Shown here: in pieces, positions 34,022-59,023 of the stretch
How the letters are laid out: each line of letters opens with the position of its first letter
How positions within the stretch are numbered: the first letter of the stretch is position 1
Assembly: GCA_947589675.1 (NCBI GenBank)
Contig: CANQCI010000001.1
Location: 7,156-71,155, forward strand
Length of the DNA stretch: 64,000 nucleotides
Direction of reading: 5' to 3'
Source: an uncultured Bacilli bacterium
GTDB taxonomy: Bacteria > Bacillota_I > Bacilli_A > RF39 > UBA660
Program-made: the position numbers and the translations under genes
Notes under the pieces: generated by a model
The model's database searches: none
The model's input: only the letters and a program-made list of their open reading frames with translations
What the model was told of the DNA's origin: nothing

Positions 34022-34462
34022 ATGGCTGATGATTATAAAAAATATGAAGAAGATGTTAAAAAAATAACTAAGAAAAATGAAAGGTATTTAAAGGCTTTTG
34101 AAAACTGGCTTGTAGATAAAAATTTAAGTGAGAAAACTATCAGAAACCATGTCGAAAATGCTGATTTGTATATTAATAATTATTTAACTTATTATGATGC
34201 CAATAAAATGGAAGAGGGAACATCGATGGTATATTCTTTTTTGGATGATTGGTTTATAAGAAAGTGTTTATGGTCATCTGTTGCTTCTATTAAAGCAACT
34301 GCGGCAAGTATTAAAAAGTTTTATCAATGTATGTGTGAACTTGGGTTTGTTAAAAAAGATGATTACGATATGTTATGCCATGTAATTAAAGAAAATATGG
34401 ACGTTTTCATAGATTCATATGAGGAATTTTATGGTGATGATGAAGACGACTTTTGGTTTTGA
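34022..34462 (+). CDS. hypothetical protein with an acidic C-terminus (146 aa)
   Basis: ORF with an RBS. No motif recognised. Confidence 0.4.
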   Translation: MADDYKKYEEDVKKITKKNERYLKAFENWLVDKNLSEKTIRNHVENADLYINNYLTYYDANKMEEGTSMVYSFLDDWFIRKCLWSSVASIKATAASIKKFYQCMCELGFVKKDDYDMLCHVIKENMDVFIDSYEEFYGDDEDDFWF

Positions 34463-35421: not shown

Positions 35422-35777
35422 ATGAAATATGAAAAATATTTAATAAAAAAGGAAAAGTTGATTTATTGTCTTCATTACAAGCACTAGATAAAAAATTACT
35501 TAAAGAAAAATTAGAAGAATATGATGTTAGGGATATAAATGAATTAAAAGATTTTATTTTAGAAGATTTTGAATTTTGTTTAGATTCATCTAAAGGTGAT
35601 ATAATGACAAGACTCTATTTTGAAAGATTATTAGACCATGAAAATTCTGAATGGATGTCCGCATATGGGGATGATATTGAGAATCTTAACGTTTTTATTT
35701 ATGAGAATGGAGATTATATTTCTTACTATATTCCCACAGAGATTAAGAAAATAACGAAAAAAATATTAGGATTATAA
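35422..35777 (+). pseudogene. small protein gene interrupted by a frameshift in an A6 homopolymer; paralogue of the N-terminal domain of the 37175-38530 protein
   Basis: ATG 35422 reads MKYEKYLIKKEK, then the frame is lost. Frame 0 from 35451 reads ...VDLLSSLQALDKK.... Together these align with MDYDKYVVKSDKEDLLSSLKALDK at 37175. The ORF track starts at TTG 35466. Confidence 0.45.
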
Positions 35778-35921
35778 CTAAAAATAAGACTGAGTATAAA
35801 GAAAAATTGTATTTACTCTTAGAATTAAGAATTTTGAAATTTAAAAATTATCAAGTATTTACCTAAAATAGTAACTATGATATAATAGGACAAATATTTA
35901 TAAATATATAAAGGAAATATT

Positions 35922-36923
35922 ATGAAGAAGTTTTTAGAAAATTATAAATTTACAGATTGTTTTGAGAGTAATATACTTTCTCGTGGGGAAAGATATTACC
36001 AAGAAAATAGAATTTTAGATATATGGTATCAAGATAATAATGTTTATGCTTATGTTGATGGTTCCCAAATTTATAAAATTGGCTTAAAAATTATTGATGG
36101 GGAAATCAATGACTGCTATTGTTCTTGCCCTTATTCAGAACATGGCGAATATATGTGCAAACACCTTGCCGCTGTTTTATATTATCTAGCTGAAAATATG
36201 ATTCCCGAATTGGAAATGGATAATAAAAATAATAAAAGAGTAGATAATGAATCTATGAAACTCAATAAAATTTTTGATGATATGCAATATGAACTAGATA
36301 CAATAAGTGATAGTGATGGTTTTGTAAATTATTATAATGGTAAATATTTTGTAGATTTAATAGAAAATATTTCAGATAAAATAGAAAGTTTTATTGAAGC
36401 AGAAAACTATAATGATGCCTTTTTATTAATAAAACATACTTATTATTTTATAAAAGATACAAGCATGGATGGTTCGAATGGCGAATATCAGGATTCATTT
36501 CGCAAATTGAGTGAGGCAGCTAGCCAATTATTATATGAAGAAAATTATTATCAAAATTATTTAGAATGGGCAAATGATGTTGCTGAGAATGATGATTTAG
36601 ATGATTTTTCTGATGCTCCTTTGTATGCTTTTATTCTTTATGTTCATGATAAAAGTTCTGCTCAAAAAGTAGTTGAAATTTTAGATAATTGTTCTCTATC
36701 ATATGGTATTTTTATTAATAATGTAATAGATCGCATATTATTAGTTCATGATTATATTGGTACAGACGAAGCTATAAAATTATGTTATCAAAATATTGAT
36801 ACTTTTAGAGTAAAAGATAAGTTAATTGAATATTTAGAAGAAGAAAATAGAATAGATGAAATGATAAAACTACAAAAAGATGATATAAAAAATTCTCCAC
36901 ATAATAAGGCGGATTATGATTAA
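35922..36923 (+). CDS. SWIM zinc-finger domain protein
   Basis: CYCSCPYSEHGEYMCKHLAAVLYYL matches the CxCxnCxH SWIM signature. Confidence 0.65.
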   Translation: MKKFLENYKFTDCFESNILSRGERYYQENRILDIWYQDNNVYAYVDGSQIYKIGLKIIDGEINDCYCSCPYSEHGEYMCKHLAAVLYYLAENMIPELEMDNKNNKRVDNESMKLNKIFDDMQYELDTISDSDGFVNYYNGKYFVDLIENISDKIESFIEAENYNDAFLLIKHTYYFIKDTSMDGSNGEYQDSFRKLSEAASQLLYEENYYQNYLEWANDVAENDDLDDFSDAPLYAFILYVHDKSSAQKVVEILDNCSLSYGIFINNVIDRILLVHDYIGTDEAIKLCYQNIDTFRVKDKLIEYLEEENRIDEMIKLQKDDIKNSPHNKADYD

Positions 36924-37174
36924 ATAATTAACTTATATTAAGAAAATAATATGTCTGATGAAAAAGAAGAAATACTATCTGAGGTTATAATAGAAAACAA
37001 TGATTATATGTCTGAATAGTGATTTAATATCCCAAACAAAGTCTAATATTTATTGTAAAAGACTTTTTAAAGAAGAAATAATGAAAGTTTTAAATAATGA
37101 AAATAAAGTGAAGTTTGCTAATTTAATTAGTAATAAAAGGGTAAAAATAATAAACTGAAAGTAAGGAAGTAAAT

Positions 37175-38530
37175 ATGGATTATGATAAATATGTAGTAAA
37201 AAGTGATAAAGAAGATTTATTATCTTCATTAAAAGCTTTAGATAAAACAATAATTAAGGAAAAGTTAAAAGAATATGAAGTTGATAACATATATAAATTA
37301 AAAGATGCTATTTTAAATAAGTTTGAATTATGGGCAAATTCCTCAAAAGACAATATTTTTGCAAAATTGTATTTTAAAAGATTAATGGAATATGAAAATT
37401 ATCATTGGACTTCGACATTTGGTGATGAAGTAGAATTACTTTTTGTTTTTCTTTATGATGATGATCATTCATACTATGTTCCAACTGAGATAAAAGAAAT
37501 AATTAATAAGGTATTTAAAATTGAACAAGTTGAAGAGTATTGGGAAGAACAAAATTTAATGTTAAATCTTGATGAAATGCAAGTTAAAGATTTAAAGGAA
37601 ATGGGCAAGTTTTTACAAATTGATAAATTAAGCAATAAGTCTAAAATAGAACTTTGTATGATAATATATCGTGCTCTTACTAATCAAGATAAATTAACAG
37701 ATTTAATTGGAAGATTTACCACTAAAGAATTTGATTTGCTAAAATTGTTAATGAAAAATTGTGGAAGAGTTGAAGTTGATGGAGATAGAGAGGAACAAAA
37801 TTTTTTGTGTGAATCAGGATTAGGGCTATTACTTAAAGAAGTTGATGGAGATAGATACTATTTTTGTATATTTAAGGCTAGTTATGATGTTATTAAAAAA
37901 ATAGATTTAGAATCTCTTCAAAAAAAAGTAGAGGATAATACCAAGTTATATGATTTAGTTAGAGCTATGGTTGAATTATATGGAGTAGTTTCTAAAGAAG
38001 ATGTGGAATATTGCTATAATTTTTATTATGGTAATGGAAATAATTTAGATGTTCCTTTTGATTTTTTATTACCTCATAACAGAGATGATAATATATGTAT
38101 ATTATCTAAAAAAGATAATTTATATTTTATTCATAAAGACTTAAATGAAGAATCATTAGATATCATAAACAATATTATAGAAAAACATGAGTATATAAAC
38201 AGAAAACCAATTAAATTAAAAGATTTATTAAAATATTCTAATGATGATTATTATGAAAGAACAGAAGCTAAGAATAAATTAAAGAAATATTTAAAAAAGC
38301 AAAATATAAAACCAGAAATTATTGAAATAATTATTAAGATACTTTCTCGTATATATAGAATGAGTGATAGAAGTGAAATTGAAGATTCAGTTAAAGTGCT
38401 TCATGATTTTAGAGTAGAAGTAAATAAAAAAAATATTCAAGAAATCATCGGTTATTTAACAGAAATATATGATAATACTAGAGTATGGGAAAATAATGGC
38501 TGGACATTTAATGAGATGAAAAATAGTTAA
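37175..38530 (+). CDS. hypothetical protein (451 aa) with an N-terminal ~100-aa module shared with the 35422-35777 gene
   Basis: N-terminal LLSSLKALDK..IKEKL.EY..D.I..LKD ... YYVPTEIKEI aligns with the upstream small gene. The remainder is unrecognised. Confidence 0.5.
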   Translation: MDYDKYVVKSDKEDLLSSLKALDKTIIKEKLKEYEVDNIYKLKDAILNKFELWANSSKDNIFAKLYFKRLMEYENYHWTSTFGDEVELLFVFLYDDDHSYYVPTEIKEIINKVFKIEQVEEYWEEQNLMLNLDEMQVKDLKEMGKFLQIDKLSNKSKIELCMIIYRALTNQDKLTDLIGRFTTKEFDLLKLLMKNCGRVEVDGDREEQNFLCESGLGLLLKEVDGDRYYFCIFKASYDVIKKIDLESLQKKVEDNTKLYDLVRAMVELYGVVSKEDVEYCYNFYYGNGNNLDVPFDFLLPHNRDDNICILSKKDNLYFIHKDLNEESLDIINNIIEKHEYINRKPIKLKDLLKYSNDDYYERTEAKNKLKKYLKKQNIKPEIIEIIIKILSRIYRMSDRSEIEDSVKVLHDFRVEVNKKNIQEIIGYLTEIYDNTRVWENNGWTFNEMKNS

Positions 38531-38552: not shown

Positions 38553-38590
38553 AAAAACAACCTATAATTCATAATTGGTTGTTTTTATTA
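38553..38590. terminator. bidirectional rho-independent terminator between convergent operons
   Basis: AAAAAACAACC-tataattcataatt-GGTTGTTTTT. Confidence 0.45.
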
Positions 38591-38592
38591 AT

Positions 38593-41451
38593 TTAAATAT
38601 CTAGTTTTTCATATCTTGAGTAGTTGTTATCTGTTACCCAAATATTTACAGGACAATTATGGTGTTCTTTTAAATATTTTATATAATCAGCAATAGTATA
38701 TGTATCTAGCCATTCTTGATTATAGTTATTGGCTGGATTTTTTTCGTTAATTTTTTCTAAATTTTCTTTAAATTTTTTATAAGAATAAATGGTGGCTTTT
38801 TTATTATCTTTTGAAACTGCATAAAATACTTTCTTATCTAAAATATTGGTATCTTTAATTTCCTTGAAGATATTTGTAACTAAATTTTTGTTTTCTGGTT
38901 TACTATACCCGCAGATAATATCATAGCTTATGGCAAAATCACTCCCTAATTTTTGAGCTAAATCTTCGATATCTATGTCGTATTCTTTTTTAATTCCGTA
39001 GTATTTTAAAATTTCATAACGATTTTTGACAATCTCAGCAAATTCGTTTTTAAAATAGTGATTTTTGTCTAAACCATTTGCCATATCTAATAAATGTTTA
39101 TGAATACCATTGGTTCCCCCGATAACACCATCATCAATTTTTAATTCAATAAATTTAACTTTTTTATGTTCAAAATCAATAAATATATTATCAATACGTC
39201 CTTTTTTATTTTCCCGACTTCTTCCATTTTCAGGTATTGTTTCATCTTGGTTGTTTTCTTCATCAATTTCTTGTTCACTTTCTTTTTTTAAGTCTTTATT
39301 TGAAGCATAGAAAGTAAATTCCATTTCAAAAGGTATATCATTTTTCGTAAAAGGAGAAAGGGAAGCTTGAGCCATATCTTTTCTTCCTATTTTTGTTGCC
39401 ATTTTGGAAACTAAAGTTTGTTGAAAACTTTTTTCGCTATCAGTTCGAGTTTTAGCAAAGTCATTATCATAGTTACCTGCAAGTCCGGCGTAAATTTCAG
39501 CTCTTCTGGTCATAATATCCATTAAAGTATCAAAAGAAGTGCTATAATCAAATGCCGTTTCTTTTAGTCTAAAATTTACTTGTAAAGATTGAAAACCAGT
39601 TGGTTCTTTTGTTTTTAGATACTCATCATTTTCTTTTTTTAATTTAAAACCAGTTTGGGTATAACAAAGTAATTTTAATTTAAAAGCTTTTTCTAAATCA
39701 ATACTTTCTTCTTTGTTTATTGTTAAACAATAGCCTTTAGCTTCACCTTTATTTCTTGGGAAATATTCTGTAAAGTCATCGATTGGGACAATTGCTTGCA
39801 AATTTTCTTTAATTCGTTGGGCATTTTTTAGTTTATCTACTCCTTTTTCACTTGTTGAAAAAGGTAATTTAAATTTATTACTGGCATATTCTAATTTAAA
39901 ACCAATTGTCTTTAATGATTCATAATCATCGTTTACTTTTTGGTATGGTTTAATTTCGGTTATTTTATTTGCACAGGCTAACTCCATTAAATCATCGGCG
40001 TTGGTGTAATTAGGCAAGAACAATGAAACATTTAATATAATAGCCCCATTATAAAAATCAAATAATTTTACTCCTTTATAATAAACTTTAACTTCTGGCT
40101 TTTCTTTGGTGCCCCTGATTCTTAAACATATGTTATTTTTATCTTTTGATGGATTATAAAAATAATTAAAAAAATGGGTTGCTTTTTCTTTATTATCCAT
40201 GCTTACTTCGACATCTTCATTTTCTTTAACTAATATTACATTATCAAGGACATTTACTAGTTCTTCTGGTTTAGTTGTATGAATGGGAATAACTTTTTGA
40301 GCCTTTAGACTATTAAGTAAAGCAATTGTTTGGCGATCAGCATGACCTGATGTATGTAAATCAACAATCTCCTTGATGCCATATTTTTTAATTTCGTCTA
40401 AAAAGTTTTGCATATCTTCCTTTTCTTTATAACCACTCCACATAGAATAAATTAGACAGGCATTTGTAATATATCCTTTGGAAGCAAGCTTTTGAATTGC
40501 TTCTAACATGGAAGCTTTTATTAGAAAACAATATTTTTTATTTTGATAAGCCTTTTGTTTTGCACATCTACGAAGATTATTCACATACTTTTGTTTAAAT
40601 TCTAAACTCTTTCTTAAATATTTGGAAATTACCCATACATATACATCGTCATTATCATATGGATTAGGAATAGTAGCATCTTTTAAACGAACAGCTAAAT
40701 TGGCTGTAAACAAATCTTCAATAAAAGTTTTTCCTGTCGTTTTAGTGACTTGATAAAAACCTTTTAAACGATCGATATTAGTGGATGATTGTAAGATAAA
40801 AACTTGATCATACTTCTTAAAATATTCCTTAGCTCTGATCATTAAATGTTCTTCCGTTTCGTTGACAACTTCTGGGCGACTTAAGGAAGTCCCCTCAGTT
40901 ATAAGCATATCTACATGACCAATGGCTTTTAAGGTGGGCTTGAAATCCTTACCATTTAAACCATTATTACGAAAGTCGCCAGTATGAAGGATTCTTTTGC
41001 CATCCGCTTCGATTAAAATCATGGCGGAGTGATAAGCGGAATGATCGACAAAGTAGGGGGTAATTCGCATATCTTTAATTGTAATAGTTTTATTAAAAGG
41101 CATATCTAAGGTATTAAAACGGATACTTTTGGAGGTAAAAACTGATAATAATGTATATATTTTTTTCGAAATATCTTCAACATAAACCGGAATATCATCT
41201 AATATATAGTGAATTAAACCAATATGATCCCCATGACTATGGGTGATAAAGACCGCATCATACGTTTTATCCCCAGTTGTTAAACCATCAATCTTCGGAT
41301 TTTTGATTCTTTTTGTGGCATTATCATCCGGTAAATCTTCCCCAAAATCAATAATAATTCGTGTTCCTTGATTACTGGTAATTTCGGTAATACAACCACC
41401 AATTTGGTTGGTACCTTTTAAAATTCTAACTTTCATTTTTACATCTCCCAT
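38593..41451 (-). CDS. large two-nuclease-domain protein: N-terminal MBL/beta-CASP (RNase J-like) plus C-terminal PD-(D/E)xK-like domain
   Basis: N-terminus: FITHSHGDHIG (HxHxDH) ... later HTSGHA (beta-CASP motif C-like). C-terminus: GRIDNIFIDFEHKKVKFIELKID (D...ExK). The start may be the second ATG (41436), which has a GGAGA RBS. Confidence 0.55.
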   Translation of the reverse strand: MGDVKMKVRILKGTNQIGGCITEITSNQGTRIIIDFGEDLPDDNATKRIKNPKIDGLTTGDKTYDAVFITHSHGDHIGLIHYILDDIPVYVEDISKKIYTLLSVFTSKSIRFNTLDMPFNKTITIKDMRITPYFVDHSAYHSAMILIEADGKRILHTGDFRNNGLNGKDFKPTLKAIGHVDMLITEGTSLSRPEVVNETEEHLMIRAKEYFKKYDQVFILQSSTNIDRLKGFYQVTKTTGKTFIEDLFTANLAVRLKDATIPNPYDNDDVYVWVISKYLRKSLEFKQKYVNNLRRCAKQKAYQNKKYCFLIKASMLEAIQKLASKGYITNACLIYSMWSGYKEKEDMQNFLDEIKKYGIKEIVDLHTSGHADRQTIALLNSLKAQKVIPIHTTKPEELVNVLDNVILVKENEDVEVSMDNKEKATHFFNYFYNPSKDKNNICLRIRGTKEKPEVKVYYKGVKLFDFYNGAIILNVSLFLPNYTNADDLMELACANKITEIKPYQKVNDDYESLKTIGFKLEYASNKFKLPFSTSEKGVDKLKNAQRIKENLQAIVPIDDFTEYFPRNKGEAKGYCLTINKEESIDLEKAFKLKLLCYTQTGFKLKKENDEYLKTKEPTGFQSLQVNFRLKETAFDYSTSFDTLMDIMTRRAEIYAGLAGNYDNDFAKTRTDSEKSFQQTLVSKMATKIGRKDMAQASLSPFTKNDIPFEMEFTFYASNKDLKKESEQEIDEENNQDETIPENGRSRENKKGRIDNIFIDFEHKKVKFIELKIDDGVIGGTNGIHKHLLDMANGLDKNHYFKNEFAEIVKNRYEILKYYGIKKEYDIDIEDLAQKLGSDFAISYDIICGYSKPENKNLVTNIFKEIKDTNILDKKVFYAVSKDNKKATIYSYKKFKENLEKINEKNPANNYNQEWLDTYTIADYIKYLKEHHNCPVNIWVTDNNYSRYEKLDI

Positions 41452-41457
41452 TCTTTT

Positions 41458-42504
41458 TTAATGAATAATATACCAAGCATTTCTTTTAAAATCATAGCCG
41501 ATATTTTTATAAATTTTATTATAATCATGCATATAACGTTCGACACTTCTAAGGGTAAGCGAAAACTTTTTAGCAATTTCCTTAGTCGTAACTATATCCT
41601 TCTTTTTTAAATAAAGATGGATTTTTTCTAAAGATGCTTTTTTGTTTTTGGATAGTTTTATTTTTTTACTATTTAAAAGATATTTATAATAAAGTTCAAG
41701 GATAGAGTCATCATCAGGATATTCTTGATTAACGAAATAAATATTACTATATTTTAAATGATAAAAATTTAGCTTTTTTTCATCCTCGGTAAGTATATAG
41801 ACAAATTGAAAGTGATTAAATAGTTTACGATATTTTTTATCGATTTCCATAATCTCTTTTAAGGGTAACTTATCTTCGCCGATAATCAGTAGAAACCCTT
41901 GTTTCCTTTTTAAATCTTCCAGTTTATCAACTTTCTTTATATACGGAAAATGGAAATGATTTTCCTTAGTAAATTCATCTAGTTCTCTTTTATCGATTAA
42001 AGAATAATATAGGGAACCACAAAGATAAACGTTTCGTGACATTTGGGCTAAATCACTATCTTTAGGATAAATTTCAAATACTTTTAAAGGATAAGATTGT
42101 GCATCAATTTCCTGTAGTAATTCTTGTTGTCTTCTCAAAATATAAAAATATTCAGTCTTTTCATAATCACAAACTATTTTTAAAACTTTAGGTTCAATTT
42201 TTAAAAAAATAATAAAATCACAATCAACAATTTGGGTACTAAATAAAGGCTTTCCTTTTTCAATTTTGATTTGTTCTTCCATTCTTTTTCGTTCATTATC
42301 TGTTACATACCATTTTTCAATTGCCCCAAATTCTTTAATTAGTAATTCATCTAAGACATGATTATAAAGTTTTCCCATAGCCATAAATTGATAAATCTTT
42401 TGGATGGAAGTTTCACTGGCTGATAATACTAAAACTTTTTTATCTTGATTTTCTAAAAGAATTTTTTTTAACCGATTTAACTTTTCATTCATATTTTTCT
42501 CCAA
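41458..42504 (-). CDS. hypothetical protein with a C-terminal helix-turn-helix
   Basis: C-terminal ...DIVTTKEIAKKFSLTLRSVERYMHDY is HTH-like. It lies 6 bp upstream of the 952-aa gene. Confidence 0.45.
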   Translation of the reverse strand: MEKNMNEKLNRLKKILLENQDKKVLVLSASETSIQKIYQFMAMGKLYNHVLDELLIKEFGAIEKWYVTDNERKRMEEQIKIEKGKPLFSTQIVDCDFIIFLKIEPKVLKIVCDYEKTEYFYILRRQQELLQEIDAQSYPLKVFEIYPKDSDLAQMSRNVYLCGSLYYSLIDKRELDEFTKENHFHFPYIKKVDKLEDLKRKQGFLLIIGEDKLPLKEIMEIDKKYRKLFNHFQFVYILTEDEKKLNFYHLKYSNIYFVNQEYPDDDSILELYYKYLLNSKKIKLSKNKKASLEKIHLYLKKKDIVTTKEIAKKFSLTLRSVERYMHDYNKIYKNIGYDFKRNAWYIIH

Positions 42505-42556
42505 AGAAACATCTGTTACTATATATTTATTATAGCATGTCTTGATAATAATGAGG

Positions 42557-43129
42557 TTAAAAATTTTTCATAGTTAAATGATTAATAGAACTTACTTGCC
42601 AATTGGTGAAATTATATTTTTTAAATCCTTTTTCATTCATAAATAAGATAATTTGGGCATTATATCTTTTACTATATTTTTCAATGGTATTTTTTAGACA
42701 TTTAAAACTTTTGGTAGTATTTTTTAATAAATCTTCTAAACTATCAATAATAATCATTTGATATTCATTATCAAAATCAAAGATAATATCAACCCAGTCT
42801 TGTTCGGGAAATACTTTAGAACTACTAATAACTATATTAGCATGTCTAACTTTTTCTAAAGCTAAAATAAAATCTTGGACATTTATTTTTTGTTCTTTTA
42901 AAGCATTGGTTTTAGCTCCCACGGGAAACATATAGCTTTCTATTACTTGAAAATTAATTTTCGAAAGATGCGAGATTAAACGATTAACGTAATAGGAAGT
43001 ACGTAACAAAAAAGATTGCATATAAATAGTTTTTTGTTCTTTGATACCATATAAATCGAGAATATTAATAAGGAGAGGAATCCTTTCTTTAGGATTCCTG
43101 CTATAAATTAAAGATATACGTTCATTCAT
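42557..43129 (-). CDS. hypothetical protein (190 aa)
   Basis: ORF overlapping the upstream gene by 4 nt (ATGA). No motif recognised. Confidence 0.4.
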   Translation of the reverse strand: MNERISLIYSRNPKERIPLLINILDLYGIKEQKTIYMQSFLLRTSYYVNRLISHLSKINFQVIESYMFPVGAKTNALKEQKINVQDFILALEKVRHANIVISSSKVFPEQDWVDIIFDFDNEYQMIIIDSLEDLLKNTTKSFKCLKNTIEKYSKRYNAQIILFMNEKGFKKYNFTNWQVSSINHLTMKNF

Positions 43130-43890
43130 AGCTCATCATCAATTTTCAACACCTTATCTGTTTTTGAATCTAACTCAATCAAAAAAGTTTGCTCAAATAA
43201 ATTAAGGCTAACTGTTAATGATTCTTTATTAACATTTGATACTTTCCCCACCATATCTTTAAAAGCACCATTTAATATTTGCACTTTATCATCTTTCTTA
43301 ATATCTTCAAAAGCTGTGAACTCTTTTGGAATTTCTTCTTTCTTAGTGATTGTTCTTTCTTTAAGATAAGGTCGTAAATCAAATGGTTGGGGTTTTACTT
43401 CTGGGACATCTAATCCATAAAAATATTTATTGATACAAAATATTTCAAAATCTCTTGTTTGATTGGCTAGGGCTACATCATAATCATAAAATTCGAAGAC
43501 ATAATCAATATATTCATCAAGTCCTTCCATGTTTTTGTTTGCTCTTAATGCCTTACATTGGGTAATGATATCTTCATTTTCCTTGAGTAAATCATTTAAT
43601 TCATCGGGGTTATAATGATATTTTTTTGAGTAACTAGCCATCGGCAATTTTGGTAAGGGGGCTTTTACTTTGGCAACTTCTAGTCCATAAAAGTACTTCA
43701 CAATACAATATAAGATATATTTAAATTCCAAATCGTCCTCATGATGCATTGCCATATAAATTAATCGGTTAATATATTGTCTTACTCCTTTCTTCCGATA
43801 ATTCTTTTTTAATTCAAGCATTTGTTCAATAATGTTATCTTTTGACCTAATGATGTTGGCTACCTCCTTCGTTGCTCTAATAGAATACAT
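43126..43890 (-). CDS. KOW-domain protein with an internal tandem repeat (NusG-paralogue-like C-terminus)
   Basis: The C-terminal KDDKVQILNGAFKDMVGKVSNVNKESLTVSLNLFEQTFLIELD matches the NusG KOW pattern. Two internal repeats, KYFYGLEVAKVKAPLPKLP and KYFYGLDVPEVKPQPFDLRP. No obvious NGN domain. Confidence 0.5.
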   Translation of the reverse strand: MYSIRATKEVANIIRSKDNIIEQMLELKKNYRKKGVRQYINRLIYMAMHHEDDLEFKYILYCIVKYFYGLEVAKVKAPLPKLPMASYSKKYHYNPDELNDLLKENEDIITQCKALRANKNMEGLDEYIDYVFEFYDYDVALANQTRDFEIFCINKYFYGLDVPEVKPQPFDLRPYLKERTITKKEEIPKEFTAFEDIKKDDKVQILNGAFKDMVGKVSNVNKESLTVSLNLFEQTFLIELDSKTDKVLKIDDEL

Positions 43891-44151
43891 GTCTATTTTC
43901 TCCTTTCTTAAGAAACATTATAGCATAGCATTTTTATATTTCTTTTAAACGACAATTTTATTTTGCATATTTTGCCTAATTTATAGATATTAAGTGAAAA
44001 ATTTGTAATTGTAAAAATTAGAAAATTTGCTAATTATTATTTATAGAATATCATAATGTAAATAAAATGATAAATTTTAATATATTTTGTATAATTAGCT
44101 TTTAGTTATGATACAATATTTTTAAATAAAATAATGATAGGAGATTAACTT

Positions 44152-44394
44152 ATGGATAATGAAAACATGAATAATAAAATAATTATTAATGGAATAGAAT
44201 ATGAAATTGTAGCTTATTTAAAAAATGAGAATGGAAATTACTTAGTTTATACAGATGGAAAAATATTAGAAAGTAATAATGTTGCTCTTTATGTAAATTT
44301 AGTAGTTATAGAAAATGGTGAATTTAAATTAGAAAGTATTGATGATACAGAAGTTTCCAATGTTATTGAATTATTGAAAGAGAGGTTAAAATAA
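44152..44394 (+). CDS. small DUF1292-like protein (80 aa)
   Basis: IEYEIVAYLKNENGNYLVYTDG ... VIENGEFKLESIDDTE..VIELLKE pattern. Paralogue of 61384-61632. Confidence 0.4.
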   Translation: MDNENMNNKIIINGIEYEIVAYLKNENGNYLVYTDGKILESNNVALYVNLVVIENGEFKLESIDDTEVSNVIELLKERLK

Positions 44395-45713
44395 TGATTA
44401 TATCATCTAGATTGGTAGAATTAATGAATTATAAAGATTTTTTAGAATATGAAATTAGACTTCGAGAAACTATTAGACCTTTTGATTTTGTGTATTTAAA
44501 CGGCAGGGCTAATAAGACATTAGGAACATTAAAAGCTGCTTTAGTTGAGATGGAAAATATTTTAGTTAATATTGAACAAATCACTAAATTAAGTAATATG
44601 TTAAATGATGTAAAAAAAATAAAACCTTTACAACAAGAATTAGAACAAAATAGGAAAGCTAAAGAAGCTGTTAAAAATATTGATACTATTAGTAATGATG
44701 TAAGGAAAGATTTAAACGGGTTACAAGAACAATTTTTTACTCAACTACAATATTGTTATGACTTGAAAAATAAAGTTGCTCAACAAATTGTTGATTATGA
44801 AGAAAGAAAAAACTATGATAAAAAAACTGAAGAGTTTGCTTCTTTAGCTCGCAATTCTTTAGTAAATAAAGGAAGGGTTCCTTTTCAACAAGAAACCTTG
44901 CTGCAAGATGCAAATGAAAAAGTAAAAGAACATGATGAAAAAGCAACTACAATAGATAAAGATTATGCCTTTTTAAGTAGTCACGAAAATACTTTAGATA
45001 GAGCTCTAAATGCTTTGGAGGATATTTTAAAAACTCCAGCTACTTTTTCGGAAAGACAAAATGTTGGGTTACAAACTAAAATTAAAAAGGAAGTAGCCAA
45101 CATAAAAAAAGCCTTACCACCTAAAGTTATTTTGGTTTCAAAAGAGTCATTGAGTAAATTAAGAGAATCTGATCAATTAACCAATGATTTAAGATTTATT
45201 CAAGCTTTATTACAAAATCCCCCAACTTTAGTCAATAGAAGTTATTGGGAATATAATGCTCGAATAGATAAAATTAGAAATTTATTAGATCAAGCTTTAC
45301 AATTTGAAGAAAAAAGAAAATCTAATATTGAACAAGAACGCAATACAATAGCCAAAAAAGAAAAGTTTGCTACCGATGCGGTTAATAAATATGCTAATAT
45401 TTTAAATGATAATCAAATAACTCAACAATCGCAAATTCATATTGAAAATGGTCAATTTGATTTACAAGCTGAAAATGAAAGATTAAAATTGGCACGTGAT
45501 GAAGCCTATAGAAATGGTGATTACGAAAAAGCTCGAAGTATTCAAGAAACCATATCTGCTAACGAAAAAACTATCGCGGGAATAATGAGTAAAAGTGCTG
45601 TTACCACATTACCTTTAGAGTATACGGATATGAAACAAAAATTAAAGAATATGAGTTTTTTATATCAAAATGATGATTCGCAAACTTTATCAAATGAAGG
45701 AAGACCGAGATAA
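44394..45713 (+). CDS. hypothetical coiled-coil protein (439 aa)
   Basis: Helical and coiled-coil throughout. Translationally coupled to its flanking small genes (TAATG overlaps). Confidence 0.45.
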   Translation: MIISSRLVELMNYKDFLEYEIRLRETIRPFDFVYLNGRANKTLGTLKAALVEMENILVNIEQITKLSNMLNDVKKIKPLQQELEQNRKAKEAVKNIDTISNDVRKDLNGLQEQFFTQLQYCYDLKNKVAQQIVDYEERKNYDKKTEEFASLARNSLVNKGRVPFQQETLLQDANEKVKEHDEKATTIDKDYAFLSSHENTLDRALNALEDILKTPATFSERQNVGLQTKIKKEVANIKKALPPKVILVSKESLSKLRESDQLTNDLRFIQALLQNPPTLVNRSYWEYNARIDKIRNLLDQALQFEEKRKSNIEQERNTIAKKEKFATDAVNKYANILNDNQITQQSQIHIENGQFDLQAENERLKLARDEAYRNGDYEKARSIQETISANEKTIAGIMSKSAVTTLPLEYTDMKQKLKNMSFLYQNDDSQTLSNEGRPR

Positions 45714-46000
45714 TGTCCCAAAAACAAGATGTATTTAATTCTTTTATGGATGAGTTTGTTAAACTAGACATAAGTCAAAAGAACCACGAAATAATTGAAA
45801 AACAAAAATTAATAATAGCTTTTTTATTTAAGTATGCTACGGAACATGGAATAAAATATGAATCTATAAAAAGTAAAGAAATTAATGATATTATGGAAAA
45901 TAAGGGAACTAATGAAGACTATTTAGAGGCTATGATGGTTTATACTCATAATATTGAAGAATTAATTGGACTTATTTTAAATCGAGGAAATTATAAATAA
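45713..46000 (+). CDS. small helical protein (95 aa), paralogue of 61089-61382
   Basis: EAMMVYTHNIEELIGLIL aligns with EAVFVYINAIKELIGNYV in the 61089 ORF. Confidence 0.4.
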   Translation: MSQKQDVFNSFMDEFVKLDISQKNHEIIEKQKLIIAFLFKYATEHGIKYESIKSKEINDIMENKGTNEDYLEAMMVYTHNIEELIGLILNRGNYK

Positions 46001-46036
46001 AAACAACCTATCATATGCGAAGATGGTTGTTTTTGT
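45999..46036 (+). terminator. rho-independent terminator
   Basis: AAACAACC-tatcatatgcgaagat-GGTTGTTTTTGTT. Confidence 0.4.
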
Positions 46037-46245
46037 TCTTTCGTTACAGTTCAGTCAGATAAATACAGGGATTGAGGGACATTTTTAGTATAAAAATAAT
46101 GTTTTTTAGCAAAAATTCAGTCAATATTTATAATTTTTGCTCTAAAAAGAGAATTTGATACTTTATTAAAAATATCTATTATTCCCATTAATTACAATGG
46201 TTTATTTATATTTTTAATTCCTTGACTGAACTGTAACGTTCTTTC
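46036..46245. mobile_element. MITE-like element / IS footprint: 16-bp perfect terminal inverted repeats flanked by a 7-bp direct repeat
   Basis: TTCTTTC[CGTTACAGTTCAGTCA ...165 bp... TGACTGAACTGTAACG]TTCTTTC. The interior is non-coding and holds a nested IR GCAAAAATT/AATTTTTGC. Confidence 0.45.
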
Positions 46246-46333
46246 ATTTGAATAGGTGAATAAGTATTTAAAATGAATTTAATTTATGATATATTATGTT
46301 TAGCAAAGATTTATTTAGAAAGGACAATAATAT

Positions 46334-47413
46334 ATGAAAAAAGATACTTATGTAAATTATATAAAATATACTTTAAGCACCTATAATAAAGCAAATAAGA
46401 GAGAATTAATAAAGTTATATAAAGATGCTAATTTAGTAAAGGAAAAAAATGCTTATCCAACTATATTTGATGATGATTTAGTGGATATAGATTATACTAA
46501 TATGGATAATACTATTATTGATTGTATAAAAAAGCATGATGAGGCAATTGAAATATATGAAAAATATCAATTTACAAAAGCATATAAATATGCCGTTTTA
46601 TTTAAATGTTCTGATTTTGAAAAATTGTTATTAAAAATAGATGAAATCGCTGAATATGAATATAATAATACCAATGTAAAACTATTTGATGAATTACAGC
46701 AGCCCACTAAAATAATATATAATAATGACAGTATATTATTGTTTAATAAAAAGTTTGAAGCTGTACACCCTCAAACTGGGGAAGAATTATTATTACATTA
46801 TCCATTATTAGCCATAGTTCACAAAGAAAGTAAACTTGTTGAATTTAGATTTGATACAATAAAAAGGCTGTTTACTGATGGAGATAGAGACCAAAATATA
46901 TATGTGAAATTGATTGATGAATTAATAAATTATTTTAAAACAACGTTCGACAGTGATTTGTTGGCTATTAATTTAGATTTTATGATTGAAATAACAAAGG
47001 AGGAATCTAATAAAAATATTAAATTATTATCGCAATACATGTTTTTAAAAGATGGTGGTAAAGCCCAATTAACAGTGGGCAATAATGAAGAATATGTGTT
47101 ACCAATTATAGGAGAATTAAAAAACATAATCAATGAATTAAGAGAAGAACTAGACAAAAATGTCAAAATTAAAGACGCTTTAGAACAGTTTGTATATGAA
47201 AAAGAAGAAACGACAGATTATCCTTGGATTGAAGTTTTATTTTTGGATGAAGAGGGAATAAAAACTAGAAATAATCATGTAAAATTTACATTTAACTATA
47301 TGAACAGAAATTATTGCTTAATAACATATTATTATAATGATACATTAATTGAAATGGAGAGGATGAATAATGTCACAAGATTTATTGGAAAAAATATTGA
47401 AAGACAAAATTGA
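46334..47413 (+). CDS. hypothetical protein (359 aa)
   Basis: First gene of a tightly overlapping three-gene operon. No motif recognised. Confidence 0.45.
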   Translation: MKKDTYVNYIKYTLSTYNKANKRELIKLYKDANLVKEKNAYPTIFDDDLVDIDYTNMDNTIIDCIKKHDEAIEIYEKYQFTKAYKYAVLFKCSDFEKLLLKIDEIAEYEYNNTNVKLFDELQQPTKIIYNNDSILLFNKKFEAVHPQTGEELLLHYPLLAIVHKESKLVEFRFDTIKRLFTDGDRDQNIYVKLIDELINYFKTTFDSDLLAINLDFMIEITKEESNKNIKLLSQYMFLKDGGKAQLTVGNNEEYVLPIIGELKNIINELREELDKNVKIKDALEQFVYEKEETTDYPWIEVLFLDEEGIKTRNNHVKFTFNYMNRNYCLITYYYNDTLIEMERMNNVTRFIGKNIERQN

Positions 47414-47714
47414 TTTAAATCTTGATGAAGCGATAAAATTTTTAATGAAATTTAAAAAAAATGAATATATTTATCCAAGTACAATTAAAAGAAATTTAAA
47501 GATAGATGATAAAAAAGTTTATGAGGTATTAACACTATTGGAAAATGCTGGTATTATAAAAATGTATTATGAATTTTTTTGCTACAATTGTAATAATTCA
47601 AAAGGTTTGTATACCTATTTTAATGAATTAAACGATGAATTAGTTTGTGATTATTGTGAGAATAAACTAAATAGTAATGATAATATTAAAATAGTGTATA
47701 AGGTGATTAAATAA
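47370..47714 (+). CDS. small winged-helix plus C4 zinc-ribbon protein (114 aa)
   Basis: ...KVYEVLTLLENAGIIKMYYEFFCYNCNNS...CDYCENKL. Overlaps the upstream gene by 44 nt. Confidence 0.45.
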   Translation: MSQDLLEKILKDKIDLNLDEAIKFLMKFKKNEYIYPSTIKRNLKIDDKKVYEVLTLLENAGIIKMYYEFFCYNCNNSKGLYTYFNELNDELVCDYCENKLNSNDNIKIVYKVIK

Positions 47715-47716
47715 GC

Positions 47717-48412
47717 ATGAATGATATAGATAGTATAACAACGGCGTTTAAAAATTTGGGTAATGAAATATCTTATAAAAAAATATGCGAATTTACCGAT
47801 AATCAAAGAAAAGAATATAAAATTCTTTTAGCTAATTTAGAAAAAGTAAATTCAACAAAACAATCATCAAGCGAAAAAGGAAAGGCACTTGAAGATATTG
47901 CTTCATTTGTTTTAAAAACAAGCAATATTTTTGATGTGTATCAGAATATATTGACTTCAACAAATGAATTAGACCAATTAGTTAGAACTAATAATAAAGG
48001 TAAAATTTTATTTTCGAATGGGATAATTGATAAAAGACTAAAAAGTTTTATATGTGAATGTAAAAATCATAAAGAAAAAATTTCTGTAACTTATGTTGGT
48101 AAGATATGCAGTTTATTATCTACAACAAAAAATAAAATTTGTATTTTATTTTCTTACTATGGAGTTTCTGGTAAAGAATGGAAAGATTCTGTTGGATTAA
48201 TAAAAAAGTTTTATTTGTCAAAAGAAAATGAAGAAGATAGATATTGTATAATAGATTTTAATATAAAAGATTTTATAAGTATAGAAAAAGGTAACAATAT
48301 TCTTCAAATTATAGAAGATAAAATTTTGGCTTTACAAAATGATACTAATTACATATATTTGTTAAGTCCACATGAATCGGAAAAGAAAGTATTAGAATTA
48401 CAAGAAATATAA
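47717..48412 (+). CDS. restriction-endonuclease-fold (Mrr_cat-like, PD-(D/E)xK) protein
   Basis: GKALEDIASFVL ... TNELDQLVR ... FICECKN ... ILFSYYGVSGKEW fits the Mrr catalytic-domain pattern (E...D...ExK). Confidence 0.5.
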   Translation: MNDIDSITTAFKNLGNEISYKKICEFTDNQRKEYKILLANLEKVNSTKQSSSEKGKALEDIASFVLKTSNIFDVYQNILTSTNELDQLVRTNNKGKILFSNGIIDKRLKSFICECKNHKEKISVTYVGKICSLLSTTKNKICILFSYYGVSGKEWKDSVGLIKKFYLSKENEEDRYCIIDFNIKDFISIEKGNNILQIIEDKILALQNDTNYIYLLSPHESEKKVLELQEI

Positions 48413-48506
48413 TCGGATATATTTCTTTTTTTATTGACTGAAATATTTTTCTTCCCTTATAAGCCAAAATATGTTAAGATAGAAAAATTAAAAAGGGGGA
48501 AAACTG

Positions 48507-56430: not shown

Positions 56431-56447
56431 GATTGATAAAATACTAT

Positions 56448-56490
56448 GGCTATCAACCAGTACTACCATTGGAATTGATAGCCTTTTTTT
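56448..56490 (+). terminator. rho-independent terminator after jetD
   Basis: GGCTATCAA-18 nt-TTGATAGCC followed by T7. Confidence 0.5.
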
Positions 56491-56877
56491 AATTATAACT
56501 TAAGTGATTTTGGAAATAAATAAAATTAAGAAACAATAACAAAATAATATTATAGTAATGCTGGTGTTATTGTTAGCAAGAGGTACTTATTTAGGATTTG
56601 CCCAATATTTTGTTGATAATTTGAAATATTATCCAATGAATATTCTATAAATAAAGATGAGTATTTAGTAAATATATTTGAAATATCTAGTTTTGATTTT
56701 GAATTTGAAATTTTAGATAATAATTTGTTAGAATATTTAAAAAGTAAACAAAATGTTGTATTATAAGCGTAAATAAATAATTTTTAATGTTGATTATTTA
56801 TTTAGGATTTATTATGTATTATATATAATAATCCACAAGTAATATGTTATAATGAATATAGTATAGTAGGTGATTAG

Positions 56878-57714: not shown

Positions 57715-57920
57715 TTTTTACAATGAATAATGCCGGAGTAACGACAAATGAAATTTATAATAAAACGAAAATAGTTCTTTCACAATCTGTGAATAATTCT
57801 AATTATAATTCTAAAATAAATAGTAAAGTTTTTAAACCGGTAACAAGTATTTCATTTTCCTTAAGTTCATCAAACAAAAATGTTAACTATAAAAAGGTAA
57901 AACAAACTAAAAATGGATAA
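57711..57920 (+). CDS. small low-complexity S/N-rich ORF (69 aa), uncertain
   Basis: Overlaps both neighbours (ATGA at each end). It may be a real linker gene or an artefact. Confidence 0.25.
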   Translation: MIFTMNNAGVTTNEIYNKTKIVLSQSVNNSNYNSKINSKVFKPVTSISFSLSSSNKNVNYKKVKQTKNG

Positions 57921-58923: not shown

Positions 58924-59023
58924 TGTATATGAATTATTACTGTATCAACCCATTATTAAATATAGTCTTTTAATTTACTTTTGATGTTGTTGATGTTATA
59001 CTTTATTTATAGTAGGTGATAAG

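What the first reader, a model, noticed from the sequence alone, without database searches (positions are those of the whole stretch)
38593..43890. Minus-strand four-gene operon: KOW protein, 190-aa unknown, HTH protein, and a 952-aa dual-nuclease (MBL/beta-CASP plus PD-(D/E)xK-like). Candidate undescribed defence system.
Four co-directional genes are packed with overlaps or gaps of at most 52 bp (43126-43890, 42557-43129, 41458-42504, 38593-41451). They sit between terminators inside a region that also carries Abi_2 and Wadjet. The terminal 952-aa protein fuses an RNase J-like MBL/beta-CASP domain (HSHGDH, HTSGHA) to a C-terminal segment with a D...ELK restriction-endonuclease-like motif. That is the architecture of an effector nuclease. 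The first gene carries a NusG-type KOW domain and an internal duplicated KYFYGL(E/D)V..VK motif, but no NGN domain. The third gene has a C-terminal HTH. I do not recognise this gene set as any named defence system (it is not Hachiman, Gabija, Septu, Lamassu, Zorya, Shedu, Druantia or similar).
Basis: partly seen in the sequence, partly recalled or inferred. Interest (0 to 1): 0.8.

Follow-up and report, generated by a model that had tools for sequence, protein, structure and literature searches.

The report
Lineage-restricted dual-nuclease operon with KOW partner
Four co-transcribed genes in an uncultured rabbit-gut Bacilli genome encode a two-headed nuclease, a DNA-binding regulator, a NusG-like KOW protein and a dead DnaB-like ATPase; the set is conserved, matches no named system, is the trimmed form of a larger cluster that elsewhere carries a PolC-derived polymerase, and is probably, though not provably, a defence or genome-conflict module.

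Summary
They recur together in about 16 loci, all from uncultured rabbit-gut Bacilli MAGs.

- **D** is a catalytically intact beta-CASP MBL nuclease, EF2904/RNase J-like but not an RNase J orthologue. It is fused to a ~535-aa module whose C-terminal domain has a PD-(D/E)xK fold with invariant E709/E711, D754, E769-x-K771.
- **A** is two ~72-aa repeats plus a NusG-type KOW, with no NGN detected.
- **B** is a DnaB-C/RecA-like domain without Walker motifs.
- **C** is two alpha/beta domains plus a BrxR/CapW-type wHTH.

New here: the operon is a reduced form of an eight-gene cluster, C-A-B-short PolC-like polymerase-E-B2-MBL-PD-(D/E)xK. In that cluster the MBL and PD-(D/E)xK parts are often separate genes, and the polymerase has lost its catalytic aspartates in several lineages.

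No PADLOC model matches and no phage or plasmid homologue was found. Strain-variable insertions carrying Wadjet and a SWIM-protein pair flank the operon.

A defence function is plausible (about 0.4) but untested. The narrow distribution and the replication-derived parts keep repair and mobile-element-remnant readings alive.

The parts
43126..43890 (-). Gene A, 254 aa. It has two tandem ~72-aa repeats (residues 9-80 = nt 43651-43866; residues 97-169 = nt 43384-43602) followed by a NusG-type KOW domain (residues ~196-246 = nt 43153-43305). It is the first gene of the operon.
   Evidence: ORF. KOW: Pfam 22.1 bits for this sequence; 12 of 16 family members, best 7e-8; family profile against PDB NusG KOW 3.8e-10. 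Repeat: 31% identity, E 3e-10. No NGN or any other hit for residues 1-180. The family has only 16 clusters among 5.8 billion sequences.
42557..43129 (-). Gene B, 190 aa. A degenerate DnaB C-terminal / RecA-type P-loop domain lacking Walker A and without a conserved Walker B acid. Predicted to be a non-catalytic scaffold or adaptor.
   Evidence: ORF. Alignment with five orthologues and two 244-aa paralogues (B2) shows SRNPKER where DnaB has its P-loop, and IIID/IIIN at the Walker B position. Weak recurrent Pfam hits: DnaB_C in 3 of 8 members (best 5.6e-4), AAA in 2 of 8, DEAD in 2 of 8. The PDB profile search gave only a Walker-B-region match to p97 at E 0.68.
41458..42504 (-). Gene C, 348 aa (probable true start ATG at 42492, giving 344 aa). 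It has an N-terminal alpha/beta domain (~residues 20-165), a second small alpha/beta domain (~185-280, the most conserved part, RKQGF...DKKYRKLF) and a C-terminal winged helix-turn-helix (residues ~286-346 = nt 41467-41649). Predicted to be a DNA-binding regulator.
40201..41451 (-). Gene D, N-terminal half (residues 1-417; probable start at Met6, nt 41436). A metallo-beta-lactamase / beta-CASP nuclease domain with all catalytic motifs: D35, H71-x-H73-x-D75-H76, H137, D159, motif A E186, motif B H366/H370, motif C H391.
   Evidence: Pfam Lactamase_B_2 4e-10, RMMBL 20 bits. NCBIfam RNase J models are matched far below their cutoffs. Motif residues are invariant in 119 homologues. The closest solved structure is the hypothetical protein EF2904, PDB 2az4 (3e-17), followed by RNase J (1e-9 to 1e-4). 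It is a separate 411-426-aa gene in L016, L018, L019, L021, L022, L023, L026-L028 and L030.
38593..40200 (-). Gene D, C-terminal half ('Dc', residues 418-952). It has an N-terminal beta-rich/ferredoxin-like region with invariant R446, Y457, G460, K462 (nt ~39472-40200). It then has a PD-(D/E)xK nuclease domain (residues ~672-952, nt 38596-39438) with invariant E709, E711, D754, E769, K771, H786, D789.
43891..43975 (-). Promoter and leader of the operon: a TGCTATAAT extended -10-like element and an AAGGAG ribosome-binding site. This ~85-nt segment is conserved with the sister strain. Upstream of it the two sequences diverge.
   Evidence: Sequence. Alignment with L011. The consensus promoter scan is not enriched over shuffles in this AT-rich DNA, so the promoter assignment is an inference from conservation.
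38553..38586 (-). Hairpin followed by a U-run, beginning 7 nt after D's stop codon. Candidate intrinsic terminator, possibly bidirectional with the convergent 451-aa gene.
   Evidence: RNA fold dG -12.3 kcal/mol, z -2.1 against shuffles. The simple terminator scan missed it.

Best explanation
The operon is the trimmed version of a lineage-specific, nuclease-centred conflict (defence-type) module.

Shown:
- D carries two intact nuclease active sites: an RNase J/CPSF-type beta-CASP MBL head and a PD-(D/E)xK head behind a beta-rich domain.
- C is a winged-helix DNA-binding protein with two alpha/beta domains.
- A ends in a NusG-type KOW domain.
- B is a DnaB/RecA-like domain with no ATPase motifs.
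- The four genes are co-inherited and under purifying selection.
- In relatives the same genes sit with a short PolC-derived polymerase, a B paralogue and an unknown protein E. There the two halves of D are separate genes.

Inferred:
- D is the effector. It degrades nucleic acid, with the beta-CASP head acting on RNA or single strands and the PD-(D/E)xK head on DNA.
- C represses or activates the operon from the conserved 85-nt promoter region. Its alpha/beta domains may sense a signal.
- A and B are non-catalytic adaptors that hold D in check or direct it to a target. They derive respectively from a transcription-elongation factor and a replicative-helicase domain.
- The polymerase was part of the ancestral machine but is dispensable. 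It has lost its catalytic aspartates in four lineages and is deleted in this window.
- The likeliest biological role is restriction of invading DNA, phage or plasmid, in a chromosomal hotspot that also collects Wadjet and other defence genes.
For: Co-occurrence: A, B, C and D families are found together in about 16 loci at 38-98% identity, with gene order shuffled and D either split or fused.

Selection: dN/dS is 0.08-0.25 for all four genes against the sister strain, like the flanking genes at 0.07-0.16.

Effector:
- All MBL and beta-CASP motifs are invariant.
- The E..E / D / ExK residues are invariant.

Regulator: the wHTH is closest to BrxR/CapW/NiaR/BirA-type domains.

Plasticity typical of conflict systems:
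- Fusion and fission of D.
- Loss of the KOW domain in A' forms.
- Loss of B, E and B2 in some loci.
- Loss of the polymerase active site (PDIDINF changed to PNIIINF or PNININY) in L017 and L028-L030.
- The wider MBL family carries variable extra domains such as LRR_5, WG repeats and ankyrin.

Neighbourhood:
- Relative to the near-identical strain L011, the operon is bracketed by two strain-specific insertions. One carries a SWIM protein that hits PADLOC candidate PDC-S62 at 6e-11. The other carries Wadjet JetABCD plus an MBL that hits DRT/Lamassu-associated models.
- In L017 the cluster lies near McrBC and Fic. In L023 it lies near Fic and a transposase.
- Chromosomal position differs among species.

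Not a housekeeping RNase J.
Against: - There is no experimental evidence of any kind. The organisms are uncultured.
- No PADLOC model matches.
- Distribution is extremely narrow. All A-family loci are rabbit-gut 'uncultured Bacilli' MAGs. Dc relatives are unnamed Bacilli metagenome proteins. No copies occur in IMG/VR, GenBank phages or PLSDB plasmids. Defence systems usually spread across phyla.
- Between the two closest strains the operon is the conserved anchor and it is the flanks that vary.
- Three loci share the hpf-secA flank, which is compatible with long vertical residence.
- Several components (PolC-like polymerase, DnaB-like domains) are replication or repair parts.
- The roles assigned to A, B and the alpha/beta domains of C are inference only.
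- The N-terminal repeats of A have no detectable relatives.
- A distant MBL-family member in a Marinospirillum isolate stands alone among metabolic genes.
Confidence: 0.4

Rival explanations
1. It is a lineage-specific DNA repair, recombination or damage-tolerance module. In this reading the ancestral cluster is a small 'mutasome/repairosome'. A PolC-derived polymerase works with inactive RecA/DnaB-like subunits, comparable in logic to ImuA-ImuB-DnaE2. A beta-CASP nuclease (as in SNM1/Artemis) and a PD-(D/E)xK nuclease (as in NucS or SfsA) process the DNA ends, all under a wHTH regulator. The window form would keep only the end-processing part.
For: - A short polymerase with PHP, palm and fingers and an intact PDIDINF motif is present in eight loci.
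- B and B2 are DnaB-C/RecA-like proteins without ATPase motifs. This parallels the inactive RecA-like ImuA of known mutasomes, whose diversity is reviewed in PMC12926913.
- Narrow, apparently vertical distribution, purifying selection and the shared secA flank in three species.
- L026 places the cluster directly beside the housekeeping PolC gene.
Against: - The polymerase is the first part to go. Its catalytic aspartates are lost in four lineages and the gene is absent from the window, L011, L021 and L026. In known mutasomes the polymerase is the point of the system.
- Beta-CASP motif C is His. From established knowledge of the family this is the RNA-type signature of RNase J/CPSF73, not the Val of SNM1/Artemis.
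- No Y-family polymerase gene was seen among the called genes of the loci.
- Neither survey of C-family polymerases that I searched by keyword mentions this cluster.
- The position is variable and defence genes lie nearby.
Confidence: 0.25
2. It is a domesticated or decaying replication module of an old integrated mobile element (prophage, satellite or plasmid). In this reading C is the former initiator or repressor, B the former helicase or loader, the polymerase the former replicase, and D the former recombination or processing nuclease. The genes now persist as a selfish or partly co-opted remnant.
For: - The parts list reads like a replication module in which most enzymes have been inactivated.
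- An integrase N-terminal fragment lies 4 kb from D (34022-34462) and is conserved in L011.
- L023 has a DDE transposase nearby.
- The cluster occupies different chromosomal contexts.
- D's MBL domain hits phrog_392 'metal-dependent hydrolase' at 9e-12, and A's KOW hits a phage antiterminator PHROG at 6e-5.
Against: - No structural, lysis, integrase or conjugation genes accompany the cluster in any locus.
- No homologue of A or Dc occurs in IMG/VR, GenBank phages or plasmids.
- All four genes are intact and under purifying selection comparable to core genes.
- Both nuclease active sites are strictly conserved. This argues for a maintained function rather than decay.
- No terminal repeats or attachment sites were identified, though they were not searched for exhaustively.
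Confidence: 0.17
3. It is an RNA-processing or transcription-termination accessory. In this reading the KOW protein docks the RNase J/CPSF-like beta-CASP nuclease onto RNA polymerase or the ribosome for a housekeeping-like role in RNA turnover. This is a bacterial analogue of Spt5-FttA.
For: - The KOW of A is NusG-type.
- D's MBL domain is RNase J/aCPSF-like with the RMMBL 'RNA specificity' signature and a His at motif C.
- A direct KOW-to-beta-CASP contact is structurally documented for archaeal Spt5-FttA and for INTS11-Spt5 KOW4 (PMC11616081).
- A plus the MBL gene plus Dc is the minimal recurrent set, as in L021.
Against: - A lacks a detectable NGN domain, the part that binds RNA polymerase.
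- A' forms without any KOW still sit next to the MBL gene in L026, L027 and L030.
- A DNA-type PD-(D/E)xK domain, a DNA polymerase and DnaB-like proteins are hard to fit into RNA housekeeping.
- The cluster is absent from nearly all bacteria and varies in position.
Confidence: 0.1

Closest known systems
RNase J / aCPSF1 (FttA) / CPSF73 beta-CASP metallo-beta-lactamase nucleases, and the uncharacterised EF2904 protein (PDB 2az4)
   Same: D residues 1-417 have the MBL fold motifs 1-4 and beta-CASP motifs A, B and C, with His at motif C, all invariant. Sequence matches are EF2904 at 3e-17 and RNase J at 1e-9. TIGR00649 and RNase J1 models match at 1e-11 to 1e-14.
   Different: The scores are far below the family cutoffs (52.8 against 820; 44 against 400), so it is not an RNase J orthologue. 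It lacks the RNase J C-terminal domain and the KH domains of FttA. It carries a PD-(D/E)xK module instead. It sits in an operon with KOW, wHTH and DnaB-like proteins.
PD-(D/E)xK nucleases of repair and defence (SfsA, NucS/EndoMS, HamA of Hachiman, the dual-nuclease Upx, Shedu SduA, Cap4/Can2 effectors)
   Different: There is no sequence-level similarity to any of them: no Pfam, PADLOC or PDB sequence hit. The N-terminal beta-rich domain is specific to this family. The second nuclease is an MBL/beta-CASP domain, not a second PD-(D/E)xK. No helicase or ATPase partner with intact motifs is present.
Specialised NusG paralogues encoded at the head of the operons they control (UpxY, LoaP, RfaH)
   Same: A has a NusG-type KOW: UpxY 9.8e-6 and NusG 1.6e-5, and PDB NusG KOW 3.8e-10. 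It is the first or second gene of a long co-directional operon.
   Different: No NGN domain is detectable. Residues 1-180 are instead two unique ~72-aa repeats. Some family members lack the KOW altogether.
BrxR / CapW / DriD-type wHTH regulators of defence and damage-response operons
   Different: The wHTH of C is C-terminal, not N-terminal. No WYL or WCX domain is present. The rest of C is two alpha/beta domains with only weak P-loop-like or receiver-like resemblance.
ImuA-ImuB-DnaE2 and related 'mutasome' cassettes
   Same: The larger sister clusters combine a non-replicative C-family polymerase with inactive RecA-fold proteins. This parallels ImuA plus DnaE2 (PMC12926913).
   Different: The polymerase is PolC-derived and truncated (630-734 aa), not DnaE2. 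No Y-family ImuB-like gene is present. The polymerase is missing from the window and inactivated in several relatives. Two nucleases and a KOW protein have no counterpart in mutasomes.
MBL-containing defence systems (HamMAB, AVAST-associated MBL, DRT 'RTasMBL', Lamassu LmuA variants)
   Same: They use an MBL-fold hydrolase inside a multi-gene defence operon (PMC13069673). One such MBL, unrelated to D, lies 14 kb away in this window at 57913-58923.
   Different: D does not match those PADLOC models at E <= 0.1. D is of the beta-CASP/RNase J type. The partner genes are entirely different.

Membership tests
RNase J (housekeeping ribonuclease J1/J2) | Whole-protein score above the curated NCBIfam cutoffs (NF047419 820 bits; TIGR00649 400 bits) | tested here: not met
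   52.8 and 44 bits. Only ~30% identity to RNase J structures over the first ~240 residues.
Beta-CASP metallo-beta-lactamase nuclease superfamily | MBL motifs 1-4 (D, HxHxDH, H, D) plus beta-CASP motifs A (acidic), B (His) and C (His or Val) | tested here: met
   D35, H71/H73/D75/H76, H137, D159, E186, H366/H370 and H391 are all present and invariant across 119 homologues. Pfam Lactamase_B_2 scores 40 bits, above its cutoff of 27.
PD-(D/E)xK nuclease superfamily | Restriction-endonuclease-like alpha/beta fold with an acidic residue on one strand followed by an (D/E)xK motif on the next strand | tested here: met
NusG/Spt5 family | An N-terminal NGN domain that binds RNA polymerase, together with a C-terminal KOW domain | tested here: not met
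   The KOW is present. No NGN match was found in Pfam, NCBIfam or PDB profile searches; all matches cover only residues ~180-246. No structure of A was predicted, so a very divergent NGN cannot be fully excluded.
Any defence system modelled in PADLOC-DB v2.0.0 | A significant match of the component proteins to the system's HMMs | tested here: not met
   The best hits are E 0.014 (PDC-M07B, the tail of D) and 0.0049 (the HTH part of the WYL model, C). There are none for A or B. DefenseFinder was not available.
DnaB-family replicative helicase | A RecA-like C-terminal domain with Walker A (GKT/S) and Walker B motifs, plus the N-terminal helicase domain | tested here: not met
   Only weak DnaB_C similarity, in 3 of 8 members with best E 5.6e-4. 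Walker A is replaced by SRNPKER, the Walker B acid is not conserved, and there is no N-terminal domain.
WYL-domain regulators (BrxR/CapW/PafBC type) | An N-terminal wHTH followed by a WYL ligand-binding domain and a WCX domain | tested here: not met
   Only the wHTH matches. It is C-terminal in C and no WYL fold is present in the model.
ImuA-ImuB-DnaE2 mutasome | A DnaE2 polymerase, an inactive Y-family ImuB and a RecA-like ImuA in one cassette | tested here: not met
   There is no polymerase gene in the window operon. The sister loci have a PolC-type short polymerase (PDIDINF motif) and no Y-family gene among the called genes.
Wadjet (JetABCD) | JetA (DUF2397), JetB (DUF2398), JetC (SMC-like) and JetD (DUF3323/JetD_C) | tested here: not met
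   These four genes lie at 48507-56430 on the other strand. They are inside an insertion that is absent from strain L011, which still has the operon. Wadjet is therefore a neighbour and not part of this system.

The most novel reading that the evidence does not exclude
It is a transcription- or replication-coupled 'guided' dual nuclease. In this reading the KOW protein A docks the beta-CASP head of D onto an elongating polymerase complex, as Spt5-KOW docks FttA/INTS11. The dead DnaB-like B, and in the full cluster B2 plus the PolC-derived polymerase, act as decoys or sensors of foreign replication machinery. The complex would then cut the nascent RNA with its beta-CASP head and the template DNA with its PD-(D/E)xK head. 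It would be a bacterial immune or surveillance machine assembled entirely from co-opted transcription and replication parts, and a bacterial counterpart of KOW-dependent beta-CASP termination.
Probability: 0.1. Interest if true: 0.85.

Novelty: new variant of a known kind. Interest (0 to 1): 0.55.

Why it matters
If the defence reading is right, this adds a nuclease system whose accessory proteins come from a NusG-type KOW factor, a DnaB-type helicase domain and, in its full form, a PolC-derived polymerase. I found that combination in none of the catalogues or papers searched here.

It would also give a first functional context to two uncharacterised families. One is the EF2904-like beta-CASP proteins, which have a solved structure but no known role. 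The other is a newly delineated family of about 400 clusters of ~500-aa PD-(D/E)xK proteins.

Even if it is a repair module or a domesticated replication module, the short PolC-like polymerases with and without catalytic residues are not mentioned in the two surveys of bacterial C-family polymerases that I searched by keyword. The recurrent KOW plus beta-CASP pairing echoes the archaeal and eukaryotic Spt5-FttA/INTS11 arrangement.

The practical limits are the restriction to uncultured rabbit-gut Bacilli and the lack of any experimental handle so far.

Tried and rejected
- **Known-system assignment.** PADLOC, PHROGs, NCBIfam and Pfam scans of the four proteins gave no system-level match.
- **Housekeeping RNase J.** Rejected on NCBIfam cutoffs.
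- **Nucleotide similarity to phages or plasmids.** None found.
- **Protein-level searches.** D, Dc and A against phages, plasmids and IMG/VR gave nothing, or only generic MBL hits. The short polymerase from L008 against phages gave only ~30% generic PolIII-alpha matches in unannotated contigs, which was uninformative.
- **Sequence-profile searches of PDB.** Dc, B, C and E gave nothing significant.
- **Metagenome scan with the Dc alignment.** It returned one weak short contig.
- **Promoter and terminator consensus scan.** Not enriched over shuffles in this 26% GC DNA.
- **Operator-like repeats upstream of A.** Only low-complexity AT-rich matches, which I did not interpret.
- **Conserved D-Metallophos synteny across species.** Considered and dropped. 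The phosphoesterase matches only L011.
- **AFDB Foldseek.** The library was unavailable.
- **First attempt to trim the Dc alignment.** It failed because the leading Met anchored at column 0. I redid it by hand.
- **Literature searches.** Searches for KOW, beta-CASP or PolIII-alpha in defence contexts found no description of this cluster.
- **Distant isolate homologue of the MBL domain.** The Marinospirillum protein has no partner genes, so the wider MBL family does not define the system.

Full report
**1. Observation**

- A: 43126-43890, 254 aa.
- B: 42557-43129, 190 aa.
- C: 41458-42504, 348 aa.
- D: 38593-41451, 952 aa.
- A and B overlap by 4 nt. The B-C gap is 52 nt and the C-D gap is 6 nt.

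Homologues indicate that C probably starts at its fifth codon (ATG at 42492) and D at its sixth (ATG at 41436).

The window has 22-31% GC with nearly all other genes on the plus strand. It is chromosomal: CofD/YvcK, WhiA and HtrA are present.

**2. What each protein is**

*D, N-terminal half (residues 1-417)*
- It is a metallo-beta-lactamase/beta-CASP nuclease. Pfam Lactamase_B_2 gives 4e-10, and RMMBL is just under threshold.
- Every catalytic motif is present and invariant in 119 homologues: D35, H71xH73xD75H76, H137, D159, E186, H366/H370, H391.
- It is not RNase J. The NCBIfam RNase J models score 53 and 44 bits against cutoffs of 820 and 400.
- Its closest solved relative is the uncharacterised stand-alone protein EF2904, PDB 2az4 (3e-17), ahead of RNase J.

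*D, C-terminal half ('Dc', residues 418-952)*
- It has no Pfam or PDB sequence match.
- Alignment with relatives shows invariant E709, E711, GRID754, E769-x-K771, H786 and D789.

*A*
- It ends in a NusG-type KOW domain. The family profile matches PDB NusG KOW at 3.8e-10, and Pfam finds KOW in 12 of 16 members.
- Its first 170 residues are two tandem repeats: residues 9-80 and 97-169, 31% identity, E 3e-10.
- Those repeats have no detectable relatives, and there is no NGN domain.

*B*
- It is a degenerate DnaB-C/RecA-type domain. Weak DnaB_C, AAA and DEAD hits recur across the family.
- Walker A is replaced by SRNPKER and the Walker B acid is not conserved.

*C*
- The model is confident (pLDDT 90). 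It shows two alpha/beta domains followed by a C-terminal winged helix.
- The winged helix superimposes on NiaR, BirA, PurR, CapW, BrxR and DriD.
- The alpha/beta domains give only weak P-loop-like or receiver-like matches.

**3. Relatives and the larger cluster**

*Family sizes and origin*
- The A family has 16 clusters among 5.8 billion sequences. The C family has 39.
- In GTDB representative genomes A occurs in 15 loci. All are 'uncultured Bacilli bacterium, Lapin-xxx' rabbit-gut MAGs. None occurs in IMG/VR.

*Gene content of the loci*
- The full cluster reads C, A, B, a short PolIII-alpha (630-734 aa: PHP, palm and fingers), E (215-230 aa, unknown), B2 (244 aa, a paralogue of B), an MBL gene (~415 aa) and Dc (443-583 aa).
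- The MBL and Dc parts are fused in the window, L011, L020 and L024. They are separate genes elsewhere.
- The window and its near-identical sister strain L011 carry the reduced form A-B-C-D.
- Other reductions exist:
  - L021: A-MBL-Dc.
  - L017: A-B-Pol-C.
  - L026, L027, L029 and L030: forms in which A lacks the KOW domain and C is a short form.

*The polymerase*
- It is PolC-derived, with a PDIDINF motif.
- It has lost the catalytic aspartates in L017 and L028-L030.
- A more distant operon, L002, pairs a C-like short protein, a 459-aa protein with a weak DNA_pol3_alpha hit, and an MBL protein 60% identical to D.

*The Dc family*
- An exhaustive profile search shows Dc is a wider family than first appeared: 394 representatives at E <= 1e-3 and 64 at E <= 1e-30.
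- Most are stand-alone proteins of 420-550 aa. Of the ten whose clusters were looked up, nine carry no name; the one named cluster member is annotated as a hypothetical protein from a Bacilli MAG.

**4. Selection and context**
- Against L011 all four genes have dN/dS of 0.08-0.25. Flanking genes have 0.07-0.16. The operon is therefore maintained and is not decaying.
- Synteny with L011 shows the operon is bracketed by two strain-specific insertions.
  - 35466-38530 holds a 103-aa ORF, a SWIM protein and a 451-aa ORF.
  - About 44000-59000 holds unknown genes, Wadjet JetABCD and a small MBL.
- The SWIM protein hits PADLOC candidate PDC-S62. The small MBL hits DRT/Lamassu-associated models.
- The last ~85 nt upstream of A are conserved, including a TGCTATAAT element and the ribosome-binding site. 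Beyond that the strains diverge.
- A hairpin with a U-run follows D's stop codon.
- Across species the cluster sits in different neighbourhoods. Only three loci share the hpf-secA flank and two share a LysR flank. One locus lies near McrBC and Fic, another near Fic and a transposase, and another beside PolC.

**5. Interpretation**

*Shown*
- A conserved, selected and modular gene cluster.
- A two-active-site nuclease.
- A wHTH protein.
- A KOW protein without NGN.
- An ATPase-dead DnaB-like protein.

*Inferred*
- D is the effector and C is the transcriptional regulator.
- A and B are adaptors.

*Why I favour a conflict or defence role (about 0.4)*
- The nuclease pair is strictly conserved, while the replication-derived parts are freely lost or inactivated.
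- The cluster shows fusion and fission and gene shuffling.
- It lies among strain-variable defence genes.

*What counts against it*
- The very narrow lineage distribution.
- The absence from phages and plasmids.
- The lack of any PADLOC match.
- The operon is the stable element between the two strains.

*Rivals*
- A repair or mutasome-like module (0.25). The PolC-like polymerase and the RecA-like dead subunits support it. The dispensability of the polymerase and the RNA-type motif C weaken it.
- A domesticated mobile-element replication module (0.17).
- An RNA-processing or termination accessory (0.1). This draws on the documented Spt5-KOW-to-FttA contact (PMC11616081). It is weakened by the missing NGN and by KOW-less A forms that still accompany the MBL gene.

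**6. Comparison with what is known, and novelty**
- The parts belong to known superfamilies: beta-CASP MBL, PD-(D/E)xK, KOW, wHTH and RecA-fold.
- The set fails membership tests for RNase J, NusG, DnaB helicase, WYL regulators, mutasomes and every PADLOC system.
- Keyword searches of two surveys of C-family polymerases and of a recent defence-discovery paper found no mention of it. Further literature searches found nothing.
- I therefore class it as a new variant of a known kind: a multi-gene nuclease module built from a previously undescribed combination of domains.
- Interest is moderate to good at 0.55. It is real, conserved and undescribed. Its function is unproven and it is confined to uncultured organisms.

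Noticed in passing
window 35466-38530: A three-gene insertion absent from the near-identical strain L011: a 103-aa ORF, a 333-aa SWIM zinc-finger protein and a 451-aa protein with no family match. The N-terminus of the SWIM protein hits PADLOC candidate PDC-S62 at 6e-11. It may be a separate uncharacterised defence pair.
   Followed up: partly
window ~44000-59000: A ~15-kb strain-specific insertion relative to L011. It contains Wadjet JetABCD (48507-56430) and six genes before it. Four of these have no family match (439, 95, 359 and 231 aa), one has a sub-threshold DUF1292 hit (80 aa) and one has weak TrmB-like HTH hits (114 aa). A 278-aa ORF and a 336-aa MBL protein (57913-58923) follow. The MBL hits PADLOC DRT 'RTasMBL' at 1e-15 and an LmuA model at 6.5e-12.
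   Followed up: partly
window 27977-28906: An Abi_2 family abortive-infection protein (Pfam 1e-38) lies immediately upstream of an HtrA-like protease. It is about 10 kb from the operon, not adjacent to it.
   Followed up: no
window 34022-34462 (and L011 13008-13313): A 146-aa ORF with only weak phage-integrase N-terminal SAM-like matches and no catalytic domain. It is conserved in the sister strain. It may be the relic of an old integration event near the operon.
   Followed up: no
L016, L018-L024 against L017, L028-L030 (sister loci): Short PolC-derived polymerases of 630-734 aa, with PHP, palm and fingers but no exonuclease insert, OB domain or clamp-binding tail. Eight keep the PDIDINF catalytic motif and four have lost both aspartates. 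Keyword searches of the two surveys of bacterial C-family polymerases found no mention of them.
   Followed up: partly
L025 9965-10765 (Lapin-026__bin53, same genome as L017): A second, solitary copy of the KOW protein A lies downstream of secA. None of the other cluster genes is present. It is flanked by 567-aa and 169-aa proteins with no family match and by an HD_3 phosphohydrolase.
   Followed up: partly
L016-L024, protein E (e.g. L020 5746-6438): A 215-230-aa protein always sits between the short polymerase and B2. It is 74-91% identical among the full-form loci and has no Pfam or PDB match.
   Followed up: partly
window 20960-23440: An 826-aa ORF with no credible Pfam match lies in an otherwise housekeeping stretch. 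It is similar in length to SecA but is not SecA.
   Followed up: no
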